Below, in pieces: positions 31 to 2,946 of a stretch of DNA of 64,000 bases. A model generated the notes under the pieces. The model searched no databases, was not told where the DNA came from, and saw only the letters and a program-made list of their open reading frames with translations. The first letter of the stretch is position 1, and each line of letters begins with the position of its first letter. Source of the stretch: Gammaproteobacteria bacterium (GTDB taxonomy: Bacteria; Pseudomonadota; Gammaproteobacteria; JAJFKG01); contig OZ220716.1 of assembly GCA_965116795.1 (NCBI GenBank), positions 1,866,503 to 1,930,502 on the forward strand. Reading direction: 5' to 3'. The position numbers and the translations under genes were made by a program.

Positions 31-2946
31 GTGTACGCAATGGCAAATGATCCTATTGTTTGTTTTGAAACAGATTATGCAAAATTAGATAACGACAACA
101 TAACACGTCAGTTATTTGATAAGATTGCACAGATTCGTTCTCATTTTCCTAATATTGCAATTGTTTATTCAGCTAATAATGAGCAAGCAACCTTATTTTA
201 CCAAGGATATGCCACAGATACGTTGCCAAAATTAGATGGCAAAGGGCAATGTAAGCTATTTAAGAAAGTTATCAAGGAAATTGAACAGCGAGAAGTGGCT
301 GAAAGCACTCGGGTATTACCGATTGCTACATCGATGGTTGGTGGGGACAATTATGGAAAAAATGCTGTTTCAGAAGCTATTCTGAAACGCGATTTGAGTA
401 ATATTCGTGAGCATTTGCATCAAGGATGGGCAGTCATTTTTTTGGTGAAACCTTCTGAGCAGATTTACCCTCAGCAAAAAAAATCTTCGTCTACATCTAA
501 AGGTAATGGATACCCTTATGCTGATATTCCGAAATACCTTATTGGGGGAGGTAAGTCTGGCTCCACGCATTTCTATGATGATAAAAATGCCAAGGTAGTG
601 CTTACGGGAACACGGTATAGCCAAGGTGAGTTTGTTAGTTATATGCTTGATCAAATGATTACCTGCTATAACTCGTCAGATGAGCAAGCAAGTATCTTTG
701 CATTAGATAATATTAATCAAGCATTATTACCACCAATCATTACTCGAGACACATTTAACTATTATTTAACTGGCTATGTCAGAAATGCATTAGTAAACAC
801 AGCTCACTTGTCACCTGCTTATGCTAATAGAGTTGTGCGTTGTAAATTTAGTCCTAGCTATAATTTACGCATTATCTGTGATGCTCGTGCTAATACTAAT
901 ATGCCATTATCACATACGATAGAAAAAATAATTAACTTATTAAGCCAACATGGGTATGGGGTAGATACCTTAAAAAGTGCGCGTGATTCACAGGTTGCTG
1001 CTGATAAAAAGATAAAAGAAGTGAAGCACCAGAATGATATAATTTCTATTAAGTATGATCAAGCATATTCTTTTTTAAGACACTTTTGTCAAATACCATT
1101 AGCAACTATCAAACAGTTTTATGAGCAGGAATTGCATGAACGTCGTAAGCTGGCTCCAACAGAGCAGATTAACATCACAGCTGAATGTATTCAGTATAAG
1201 AGGAAAGAATATACATTAAAAGGGTTTATTGATAAAGGTTTATCAGCTAAGAAATTGGATGCGAGTGAAGCTGCCAAAAAAGTAAGGCAAGAAATTAAAA
1301 AGAATAAGCTTTACCCTGAAAACATCCGTGATTCATTAATGCATATCATGAAAGAGCTTGCTGATCCTCAATCCAATCAGCAATTATTATATCGCTATTT
1401 ACCAATAATCAATGACAAAGATATAGCATTATTACTACAAAAATATGATAACAAGGTTGATAATTTAGTGATGGATTGTACTGATCTATTAAAACAAAAT
1501 ACCCAAGGTGCTGATCCTTATTTTACTAATAAAGTGCTGACAACTATTATTACAACATTTAATACGTTAAGTGATGCAGCTTGGAAGAAATATGCAGATT
1601 TGTACCCCGAATATCATAGATTGGGTGCAATTGCATTTTTTGATAGTAAGCGAGAGGTCGTTTCACGCAAAGCGGTCACGCATTGGGGTGATCAACTAGG
1701 CAGATTTGTTGCTCAGGATATTAAACAGAATGATTGTCCAGTGGCGTTTACATTTAAATTCTGGGTGTATTTGCAGGTGGCCATGCTTGCTTATGTTAAA
1801 GGGAATTATGTCTTATCTTTCCAGATTATTGGGGGGCTAACTTCTGTAAGTAAAGGTTTATATTCTGCTATTAAGCCGACTTCATCATCTTGGAAATTTG
1901 ACTTTTTGTCTAAGCTACTCAATGGTACGGTACAACTAAACTTACAACAGCAATATTTTGCAATGCAAGGGGTGTGTTTACCGATATTGTTCCCTTATGC
2001 GAAACATTCGGAATTTGAACAAAATCGTGAAGGTGAACAGAAATCGTTGATTGAAAGTAATTTAGATAATCAACTCAAGCCAATGTTGCTTGAGATTTAT
2101 TTAACGCGGATGCATTATTCACAGCAGATTGTGGTAGATAATCGTTTATTAGGACGAGTTGAGGGTGCAGCTGCTAAATCAAGTAAATTGCCTAAAGGTT
2201 TTTTTGCCACTCATGCAGACGTAATCGGTGCTTGTCTTAACACGTTATTACCGTTTAGTTTAGAGGCGCGTTTACAGCAAACAGTGAACAACAGTTTCAA
2301 GTTAATGCGTAAACAAATTGATAACTCGCAAAAGTCAGATAAAATATTGCAAAAGGTGCTGAGTAATCCTACACAAGCTATTCCGGTTGATAATGCAAAA
2401 GATGGCGGCGCTGATACCTTGATTAATATTGCGTTACGTGCAGAGGAGTGGGAACTGGCCCATAATATACTACTATTTAATCTTTCAGCACTGAATACGC
2501 CAATACAAGGCAGTCAATCACTGACGACCTTGCTTAACCATCCGGAACGGGGTGAAATGTTTCACAACAAAGCACAAAACGTTGTGCAACAGATGATTGT
2601 GATGCAACCTGATGAGTTAAGCCAATTTAATTCAGCATCACAGACATGTGCCAATCACTTAAGCATTGCAACCCAGCTAGAATATGATCGCTTAATGGCT
2701 GAGTTAGATCGGGATATCGCGCAAGGATCTGGGCAACATACATCACCATCAAGTTCGTCTTCCAGCAGTAGCAGCTCAAGTTACCCACATTCTCATTCAT
2801 CATCATTGGTATGGCAGTCGGGACAATCTGCTAACTTATTATCAGCTAGTGGTTCGCCTATCCATCATCGTCGGTTTGTAGAAGGGGAAGCTGCATCATC
2901 ATCCCAGGATAATAAGCAGGTAGAAGGAGAAGCTAGGTTTATCTGA
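31..2946 (+). CDS. Putative eukaryote-like effector: possible macro-like N-terminal domain, RasGEF (CDC25)-like domain, Ser-rich C-tail
   Basis: 971-aa ORF with AAAGGA RBS-like sequence at the start. Segment HWGDQLGRFVAQDI...YLQVAMLAYVKGNYVLSFQIIGGL...FDFLSKLL...CLPILFPY follows the CDC25/RasGEF pattern. Poly-Ser tail. Confidence 0.6.
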   Translation: MYAMANDPIVCFETDYAKLDNDNITRQLFDKIAQIRSHFPNIAIVYSANNEQATLFYQGYATDTLPKLDGKGQCKLFKKVIKEIEQREVAESTRVLPIATSMVGGDNYGKNAVSEAILKRDLSNIREHLHQGWAVIFLVKPSEQIYPQQKKSSSTSKGNGYPYADIPKYLIGGGKSGSTHFYDDKNAKVVLTGTRYSQGEFVSYMLDQMITCYNSSDEQASIFALDNINQALLPPIITRDTFNYYLTGYVRNALVNTAHLSPAYANRVVRCKFSPSYNLRIICDARANTNMPLSHTIEKIINLLSQHGYGVDTLKSARDSQVAADKKIKEVKHQNDIISIKYDQAYSFLRHFCQIPLATIKQFYEQELHERRKLAPTEQINITAECIQYKRKEYTLKGFIDKGLSAKKLDASEAAKKVRQEIKKNKLYPENIRDSLMHIMKELADPQSNQQLLYRYLPIINDKDIALLLQKYDNKVDNLVMDCTDLLKQNTQGADPYFTNKVLTTIITTFNTLSDAAWKKYADLYPEYHRLGAIAFFDSKREVVSRKAVTHWGDQLGRFVAQDIKQNDCPVAFTFKFWVYLQVAMLAYVKGNYVLSFQIIGGLTSVSKGLYSAIKPTSSSWKFDFLSKLLNGTVQLNLQQQYFAMQGVCLPILFPYAKHSEFEQNREGEQKSLIESNLDNQLKPMLLEIYLTRMHYSQQIVVDNRLLGRVEGAAAKSSKLPKGFFATHADVIGACLNTLLPFSLEARLQQTVNNSFKLMRKQIDNSQKSDKILQKVLSNPTQAIPVDNAKDGGADTLINIALRAEEWELAHNILLFNLSALNTPIQGSQSLTTLLNHPERGEMFHNKAQNVVQQMIVMQPDELSQFNSASQTCANHLSIATQLEYDRLMAELDRDIAQGSGQHTSPSSSSSSSSSSSYPHSHSSSLVWQSGQSANLLSASGSPIHHRRFVEGEAASSSQDNKQVEGEARFI

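What the first reader, a model, noticed from the sequence alone, without database searches (positions are those of the whole stretch)
1520..2130. RasGEF (CDC25)-like domain in a bacterial ORF
Seen: WGDQLGRFVAQDI resembles FNxLSxWVAxEI; YLQVAMLAYVKGNYVLSFQIIGGL resembles FIxVAxxCxxLNNFNSLMAIISAL; CLPILFPY resembles CIPFLGxY. The motifs occur in the right order and spacing. Known: this fold catalyses nucleotide exchange on Ras-family GTPases. It is divergent here, so activity is uncertain.
Basis: partly seen in the sequence, partly recalled or inferred. Interest (0 to 1): 0.72.

Follow-up and report, generated by a model that had tools for sequence, protein, structure and literature searches.

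The report
Degenerate RasGEF-like domain in bacterial effector
A bacterium with a host-cell injection system encodes an otherwise unmatched protein holding a heavily altered likely copy of the domain that eukaryotes use to switch on Ras proteins; such domains are already known from amoeba-infecting bacteria, and this one has changed the key nucleotide-ejecting residues, so it would more likely bind a host Ras-type protein than activate it.

Summary
The three motifs lie in ORF 40-2946 (968 aa) in the right order and spacing. Pfam RasGEF misses it, and no relative of this region was found in protein libraries. A profile of 178 bacterial RasGEF domains ranks it first of 8270 own-genome ORFs: E 0.035 untrimmed, 3e-4 with a post-hoc core trim, next hit E about 1. 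hhalign scores 35.3 against at most 19.6 for 358 decoy windows. A model folded with a RasGEF alignment matches only CDC25 domains, but that test is circular. I put homology at about 0.9. The domain is more degenerate than any of 155 bacterial members. The pocket that binds Ras Tyr64 is mostly kept; the SOS1 Leu938/Glu942 equivalents are Glu658/Asn662. The genome has Dot/Icm genes. Best reading: a secreted pseudo-GEF that binds a host Ras-type GTPase. The neighbouring Rab1-like domain is an unlikely substrate. Bacterial RasGEF domains are known (Legionella LegG2, Waddlia Wcw_1131). New here are the extreme degeneracy and fusion to an unnamed N-terminal domain shared with Berkiella and environmental chlamydiae.

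The parts
26..31 (+). Shine-Dalgarno-like AAGGAG, 8 nt before ATG 40
   Evidence: sequence; favours ATG 40 over GTG 31
40..2946 (+). ORF P0001, 968 aa, effector-like multidomain protein without a full-length relative
   Evidence: no Pfam hit, no NCBIfam hit near its cut-off
55..660 (+). Unnamed N-terminal domain (aa about 6-207; invariant Y38-S39, Y52, Q65, P89, T92, G165 in A4 numbering), called the YSAN domain here
   Evidence: 32-45% identical relatives in 7 of 36 genomes of family f147; 11 loci in genome contigs; no consistent Pfam or PDB match
1516..2142 (+). Degenerate CDC25-homology (RasGEF-like) domain, aa about 493-701
   Evidence: profile match for the core; outer limits from the alignment-guided model
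1672..2031 (+). Statistically supported core, aa 545-664
   Evidence: HMM alignment aa 546-664, 16.0 bits; hhalign 115 columns, aa 545-661
1684..1722 (+). Motif 1, aa 549-561
   Evidence: in register with the profile's N-x-L-S-x-x-V-x-x-D-I
1768..1839 (+). Motif 2, aa 577-600; includes Phe594, equivalent of SOS1 Leu872
1975..2034 (+). Motif 3 and first helix of the helical hairpin, aa 646-665: Ile649 = SOS1 Phe929, Lys655 = Thr935, Glu658 = Leu938, Phe659 = Lys939 (RasGRF1 Phe1188), Asn662 = Glu942
   Evidence: gap-free register, mapped to SOS1 through and the numbering in PMC8623491
2740..2946 (+). Ser-rich low-complexity tail ending in an acidic stretch and hydrophobic last residues, a possible Dot/Icm signal
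   Evidence: sequence; resemblance to the signal is recalled, not tested
2999..11941 (+). Neighbour P0002, 2980 aa: pentapeptide repeats, PARP-like domain, ankyrin repeats, C-terminal Rab1-like domain (window about 11336-11905); context, not shown to be a partner
   Evidence: 52-nt gap with no terminator-like site

Best explanation
P0001 is likely a Dot/Icm-secreted effector whose middle part is likely a true but heavily altered CDC25 (RasGEF) domain that would bind a host Ras-subfamily GTPase while catalysing little or no nucleotide exchange. Shown: the motifs, the profile match, the residue changes and the Dot/Icm genes in the genome. Inferred: secretion; that the fold is kept; that the pocket formed by Thr547, Phe594 and Ile649 still grips the switch II tyrosine; that Glu658 and Asn662 in place of Leu938 and Glu942 no longer displace Mg2+ and phosphate. 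The domain would then act as a decoy that competes with host GEFs, or as an address tag that brings the N-terminal YSAN domain to Ras- or Rap-rich membranes of the host, probably a protist.
For: Homology. Alignment-guided model: mean pLDDT 73, 89-94 over aa 550-599; its 11 best structural matches of 48161 are all CDC25 domains, Z 10.8-13.0, rmsd 3.5-5.7 over 174-200 residues, next Z 7.3 (circular, see against). Degeneracy: 6 of 15 family-typical positions kept, against 7-15 in 155 gap-free members; 0 of 6 in a chosen subset, where 11 of 155 members keep at most 1; Glu/Asp at the Glu942 position in 130 of 167 members but Asn here. PMC8623491 (passages): Ile825, Leu872 and Phe929 form the Tyr64 pocket and decide binding, while Arg826 and Thr935 matter little. 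PMC13278026 (passage): Leu938 and Glu942 disrupt Mg2+ coordination. Effector context: IcmL/DotI at E 2.9e-52 within a cluster of Icm-like ORFs (names other than IcmL recalled), two eukaryote-type small GTPase domains, and YSAN relatives in taxa known as protist parasites. Precedent: mouse SH2D3C binds R-Ras and Rap1A without exchange activity (PMC10532290, passages).
Against: No Pfam hit. The single-sequence model failed (pLDDT 39), so the only fold evidence was guided by a RasGEF alignment and had no decoy control; its Foldseek E-values are weak (best 0.032, TM about 0.5). Phe651 and Pro652 replace the conserved Gly and its neighbour beside Ile649 and may close the pocket. The N-F-x-x-L-R motif is lost. 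Thr547 is less hydrophobic than Ile825. A two-residue shift would put Glu664-Gly665 on Glu942-Gly943, and 37 of 167 bacterial members also lack the acid, so loss of catalysis is not proven. With no close relative, selection on the domain could not be measured.
Confidence: 0.42

Rival explanations
1. The domain is an active exchange factor with a remodelled helical hairpin, tuned to a divergent protist Ras-family GTPase; Glu658, one helical turn before Asn662, or Glu664 would supply the acid.
For: Open reading frame intact; Phe659 matches RasGRF1 Phe1188 and Lys655 is the commonest residue at its column in bacterial members; acidic residues at 658, 660 and 664; the isolated RasGRF1 Cdc25 domain is active without a REM-bound activator (PMC8623491).
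Against: Lowest count of typical residues among 156 rows; both canonical Mg2+/phosphate residues changed in the gap-free register.
Confidence: 0.23
2. The domain descends from a RasGEF but no longer touches GTPases: it is a closed helical scaffold that binds another protein, as in BCAR3/NSP3, or a decaying spacer between other domains.
For: Buried hydrophobic positions are kept while most surface signature residues are lost; bulky Phe651; NSP3 is among the structural matches (Z 11.0, rmsd 5.7, 200 aligned); NSP domains are closed and bind p130Cas (PMC10532290).
Against: Phe594, Ile649 and Phe659, which face the GTPase in active GEFs, are hydrophobic; open GEFs (Epac2, RasGRF1, RalGPS1) score Z 12.7-13.0, above NSP3, though the model was guided by such sequences.
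Confidence: 0.22
3. The resemblance is chance: an unrelated helical region picked from a very large scan.
For: No Pfam, NCBIfam or PDB sequence hit; a reversed decoy reached 12.1 bits against 12.4 with the untrimmed profile; fold evidence is circular.
Against: One colinear alignment of about 120 residues covers all three motifs with correct spacing; an 11-bit gap to the next real ORF with the core profiles and 35.3 against 19.6 in hhalign; upstream, aa 505-516 line up with the family's F-x-x-I-x-x-x-E-x-x-x-x-x-W-x-K stretch in the MAFFT alignment (by eye); the genome belongs to the ecological group that carries such domains.
Confidence: 0.09
4. P0001 and P0002 form a self-contained GEF and GTPase pair: the domain regulates the Rab-like tail of the neighbouring effector.
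For: Adjacent, same strand, 52-nt gap, no terminator-like site.
Against: The tail is Rab1-like (E 1.4e-35) and has lost the switch I Thr and the D-x-x-G motif, so it is probably not a cycling GTPase; CDC25 domains act on the Ras subfamily (recalled); no small-GTPase-like ORF was found in the RasGEF loci fetched from other genomes (flanks at most 1.5 kb, most only 150-300 nt, so a weak test).
Confidence: 0.04

Closest known systems
Bacterial RasGEF (PF00617) proteins: Legionella LegG2/Lpg0276, Waddlia chondrophila Wcw_1131, and those of Piscirickettsia, Coxiella, Berkiella and environmental chlamydiae
   Same: REM-less CDC25-like domain inside a larger, lineage-specific, effector-like protein of a bacterium with a host-directed secretion system (PMC2824747, PMC3218107, PMC6925127, PMC8442362; passages only)
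   Different: Those reach the Pfam model; P0001 does not, keeps fewer signature residues than any of 155 members, and carries the YSAN domain, a pairing not seen in the YSAN loci examined
Eukaryotic CDC25-homology domains: RasGRF1 (2IJE), RalGPS1 (3QXL), Epac2 (3CF6), SOS1, yeast-type Cdc25 (7NZZ)
   Same: Motif order, spacing and predicted fold (Z 11-13, 7-15% identity); mostly hydrophobic Tyr64 pocket
   Different: No REM domain found; Leu938/Glu942 equivalents are Glu658/Asn662; conserved Gly after the Pro motif is Phe; very short hairpin loop
NSP family pseudo-GEFs (BCAR3, SH2D3C/NSP3/SHEP1)
   Same: CDC25-like domain with lost exchange activity used for binding (PMC10532290); a functional analogy
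   Different: No SH2 domain; no specific sequence link tested; bacterial, independent degeneration (inferred)

Membership tests
RasGEF / CDC25-homology (PF00617) | Reaches the Pfam gathering score (23.1 bits) | tested here: not met
   no match at E up to 1 or up to 10 in the genome
RasGEF / CDC25-homology (PF00617) | Significant similarity to a profile of family members | tested here: met
   genome-level E 0.035 untrimmed, 3e-4 trimmed; hhalign P 1.5e-5, decoys at most 19.6 against 35.3; weak, not significant at database scale
RasGEF / CDC25-homology (PF00617) | Conserved motifs in order and spacing | tested here: met
   29 against 29 and 59 against 63 residues
RasGEF / CDC25-homology (PF00617) | All-helical CDC25 fold with helical hairpin | tested here: inconclusive
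   alignment-guided model matches but is circular; unguided model unusable
RasGEF / CDC25-homology (PF00617) | Hydrophobic pocket for Ras Tyr64 (SOS1 Ile825, Leu872, Phe929) | tested here: inconclusive
   Thr547, Phe594, Ile649: two of three hydrophobic; neighbours Phe651 and Pro652 are atypical
RasGEF / CDC25-homology (PF00617) | Hairpin residues that displace Mg2+ and phosphate (SOS1 Leu938, Glu942) | tested here: not met
   Glu658 and Asn662 in the gap-free register; acid present in 130 of 167 bacterial members
RasGEF / CDC25-homology (PF00617) | Catalysed nucleotide exchange on a Ras-family GTPase | not testable with these tools
   needs a biochemical assay
REM-CDC25 module (SOS type) | REM domain (PF00618) before the CDC25 domain | tested here: not met
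   no match at E up to 1 in the genome; a very divergent REM is not excluded
Dot/Icm effector | Genome encodes a type IVB secretion system | tested here: met
   IcmL/DotI E 2.9e-52 in a gene cluster; the short Pfam DotA model found nothing and had no positive control
Dot/Icm effector | Translocation into host cells | not testable with these tools
   only the C-terminal composition was inspected
NSP/BCAR3 pseudo-GEF | SH2 domain plus closed CDC25 domain binding Cas proteins | tested here: not met
   no SH2 or other Pfam domain in P0001; analogy only
Macrodomain (considered for the YSAN domain) | Profile similarity to PF01661 members | tested here: inconclusive
   hhalign against 30 close-knit macrodomains: probability 0.3, P 0.17; no structure could be predicted

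The most novel reading that the evidence does not exclude
P0001 is a bacterial pseudo-GEF effector: a CDC25 domain turned into a dominant-negative trap or address tag for host Ras/Rap, delivering an undescribed enzyme domain (YSAN) to the GTPase. It would be the degenerate end of a large, barely studied radiation of RasGEF domains in protist-infecting gammaproteobacteria (150 matches in 26 of 36 genomes of one family), in which many copies have lost exchange residues.
Probability: 0.3. Interest if true: 0.65.

Novelty: new variant of a known kind. Interest (0 to 1): 0.38.

Why it matters
Bacterial RasGEF-domain proteins have been annotated since at least 2010, but my searches (listings and passages only) showed no paper that measures exchange activity for one. 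A member this degenerate shows that standard annotation misses part of the family and suggests that some members are decoys or adaptors rather than activators. It gives a clean paired test: typical member against degenerate member on one GTPase panel. The fused YSAN domain is an unnamed, conserved module spread between gammaproteobacteria and chlamydiae and is a discovery target of its own. The finding is modest because the kind is known, the protein has no close relative and no function is shown.

Tried and rejected
Sequence searches for relatives of the domain found only P0001 itself: aa 421-787 against 1.84 billion representatives, aa 420-790 among 2657 candidates, whole protein in 40 other genomes, metagenome contigs, PDB, own-genome paralogues. 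The Atlas look-up gave no result. Single-sequence AlphaFold2 of aa 421-887: pLDDT 39, fold search uninformative, no CDC25 entry in the 50 rows shown. Complex prediction of the domain with the Rab-like tail of P0002: no answer, score 0.00 against a mark of 0.32, controls not folded; not used for or against binding. RNA: no RNA holder listed. DNA runs showed no variants, so no dN/dS. A word-based search with alignment A1 returned one fungal protein only; A1 was too diverse for the locus scan. No RasGEF match in the two other genomes of the order (90% and 97% complete). YSAN as a macrodomain partner of the neighbour's PARP-like domain: considered from recalled motif likeness, no support. No RasGEF domain in the YSAN loci examined (several ORFs cut by locus ends). 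aa 200-480 and 700-905 matched nothing in the fetched loci (best E 0.099 and 0.033). Promoter and regulator motif scans were uninformative. No tree was built: the similarity is too low to place a donor. Term look-ups without hits in the main text: bioRxiv 10.1101/2024.05.09.593423 (its supplements are closed and may list Lpg0276), PMC9803151 (supplements not read), PMC5451489.
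Full report
Setting. The finding lies in ORF 40-2946 (+), P0001, 968 aa from ATG 40, which has a Shine-Dalgarno-like site 8 nt upstream. The window comes from a single-contig 2.45 Mb genome, 97.7% complete, in a small order of three genomes. It encodes IcmL/DotI (E 2.9e-52) inside a cluster of Icm-like ORFs (the other names are recalled), so it has a Dot/Icm type IVB system and is probably intracellular. Contigs of four public runs from two studies cover 1-3100 with no listed differences.

Standard searches fail. Pfam gives no family for P0001 at E up to 1, PF00617 finds nothing in the genome at E up to 10, and PDB and NCBIfam searches are blank. Searches with aa 420-790 return only P0001, and the whole protein matches none of 40 other genomes. 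Single-sequence AlphaFold2 failed (pLDDT 39) and its fold search was uninformative.

A better profile. PF00617 matches 21 of 400 genomes of the class. An alignment of 29 of those domains (A1) finds RasGRF1, RalGPS1, Cdc25, RasGRP, Epac2 and SOS1 in the PDB, so it is a valid CDC25 profile. It ranks P0001 first of 8270 own-genome ORFs (12.6 bits, E 0.035). One family (f147) proved rich in the domain: 150 matches in 26 of 36 genomes, up to 11 per genome. I fetched 120 further stretches and built a 178-row profile (191 domains found, 13 dropped as short or redundant). P0001 again ranks first (12.4 bits, next 8.2), in one alignment over all three motifs. Trimmed to the core, the profile gives 19.1 bits, E 3e-4, next ORF E about 1. 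Controls: 0 of 3000 shuffles reach the score; best reversed ORF 9.5 and 10.2 bits with the trimmed profiles but 12.1 bits with the untrimmed one, which is a real caution, as is the fact that the trim followed the first result. hhalign with the 178 rows gives probability 79.6, P 1.5e-5, score 35.3 over 115 columns; 358 of 1005 prepared decoy windows from long ORFs were scored in the time allowed, best 19.6. The best single relatives are L137 and L007 (E 0.0012 and 0.012 among 178). The signal is significant at genome scale, not at database scale. Given a Dot/Icm genome, where such domains are expected, I put homology at about 0.9.

Fold. The 11 best of 48161 chains are all CDC25 domains (Z 13.0-10.8; next 7.3), and Foldseek's top ten are too, with weak E-values (best 0.032). 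Because the alignment supplied the fold and no decoy could be run, this shows compatibility only.

Residues. I mapped P0001 to SOS1 through the profile with numbering anchored on PMC8623491 (passages). The Tyr64 pocket Ile825/Leu872/Phe929, which that paper describes as decisive for binding, corresponds to Thr547/Phe594/Ile649. Arg826 and Thr935, described as minor, are His548 and Lys655; Lys is the commonest residue at that column in bacterial members. Leu938 and Glu942, which disrupt Mg2+ and phosphate binding (PMC13278026, passage), are Glu658 and Asn662; 130 of 167 bacterial members have an acid at the second position. The Gly after the Pro motif is Phe651 and the N-F-x-x-L-R motif is gone. 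Of 15 positions I chose as family-typical, P0001 keeps 6, against 7-15 in the 155 members without gaps there (23 rows dropped); Lys605 may stand for the conserved Arg with a one-residue shift, making 7. A two-residue shift would align Glu664-Gly665 with Glu942-Gly943, so the loss of the acid is likely but not certain. No REM domain was found.

Mechanism. Kept hydrophobic contacts with altered ejecting residues fit binding without efficient exchange, as reported for SH2D3C with R-Ras and Rap1A (PMC10532290, passages). I commit to a secreted pseudo-GEF acting as decoy or address tag (0.42). Rivals: active GEF with a remodelled hairpin (0.23), GTPase-blind scaffold or decaying domain (0.22), chance (0.09), partner of the neighbour (0.04). 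All functional steps are inferred.

The neighbour. P0002 (2999-11941) has pentapeptide repeats, a PARP-like domain, ankyrin repeats and a Ras-superfamily tail. The tail is closest to Rab1A (E 1.4e-35), keeps the P-loop but has Lys for the switch I Thr, N-I-K-D for D-T-A-G and two insertions: probably a pseudo-GTPase. Rab-like proteins are known in Legionella longbeachae (PMC2824747, passages). Adjacency of two effector-like genes is ordinary, and no small-GTPase-like ORF was found beside RasGEF domains in the fetched loci, a weak test given short flanks.

N-terminal domain. aa about 6-207 has 32-45% identical relatives in 7 of 36 genomes of f147, 4 of 399 other class genomes and 11 genome-contig loci whose titles name Ca. 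Berkiella (7), Ca. Protochlamydia, Parachlamydiaceae, Francisellaceae and an unclassified gammaproteobacterium; these sets overlap and are not additive. It sits at varied positions in ORFs of about 200 to 2000 aa, so it is a mobile module. Invariant residues are Y-S, Y, Q, P, T and G, which suggests an enzyme or ligand site (inference). It has no consistent Pfam or PDB match, and a macrodomain link was not supported. None of the YSAN loci examined holds a RasGEF match, so the fusion looks specific to this genome.

What is known. L. pneumophila LegG2/Lpg0276 is annotated as a Ras guanine nucleotide exchange protein (PMC2824747; PMC3218107). Waddlia Wcw_1131 carries PF00617, and the same paper counts 153 bacterial proteins with the domain, in Legionella, Piscirickettsia, Coxiella, Berkiella and three chlamydial families (PMC6925127, passages); PMC8442362 lists it among pathogen-associated mimicry domains (passage). 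PMC11141579 mentions lpg0276 only as part of a silencing array (passage). I read passages only, no whole texts or supplements. In searches I saw no biochemical test of a bacterial RasGEF, which is not proof of absence. An earlier scan note on a giant-virus RasGEF beside a degenerate Rab-like gene (e1-8225750) is a parallel case that I did not check.

Verdict. Observation confirmed; interpretation partly supported. This is a CDC25-like domain, not a certified member of PF00617 and not shown to be a GEF. New variant of a known kind; interest 0.38.

Noticed in passing
window 55-660; loci L192-L199, L201-L204, L214-L224: Unnamed conserved domain (YSAN) shared by effector-like proteins of Berkiella, environmental chlamydiae, Francisellaceae and other gammaproteobacteria; no Pfam or PDB match; a deep enough alignment (A4) exists for folding.
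   Followed up: partly
family f147, genomes G314 and G402-G427: Large expansion of RasGEF domains: 150 matches in 26 of 36 genomes, up to 11 per genome, several ORFs of 1000-3900 aa with two or three copies; 11 of 155 scored members have lost most signature residues.
   Followed up: partly
window 2999-11941 (+): 2980-aa effector-like protein: pentapeptide repeats, PARP-like domain (aa 514-739, E 6.9e-8), ankyrin repeats, degenerate Rab1-like tail. aa about 1190-1350 looks by eye like an atypical kinase (recalled motif D-x-x-x-D-N then D-A-D) and aa about 1790-2110 like leucine-rich repeats; neither tested.
   Followed up: partly
G000:C1:1426287-1429775 (+), outside the window: 1163-aa frame with an N-terminal small GTPase domain (PF00071 E 2.7e-25) that reads as Rho/Rac-like, followed by Sel1-like repeats (both by eye).
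   Followed up: no
window 16049-18679 (-): 876-aa ORF with no Pfam or NCBIfam match; another orphan effector candidate.
   Followed up: no
window 52917-54113 (+): 398-aa protein with a eukaryote-type protein kinase domain (PF00069, E 2.9e-9); effector candidate.
   Followed up: no
window 12011-13162 (-): Fic-domain protein with DUF4172 directly downstream of P0002, convergent.
   Followed up: no
L223 (512-2722 and 180-620): A YSAN-domain gene split over two overlapping frames, either a frameshift or an assembly error.
   Followed up: no
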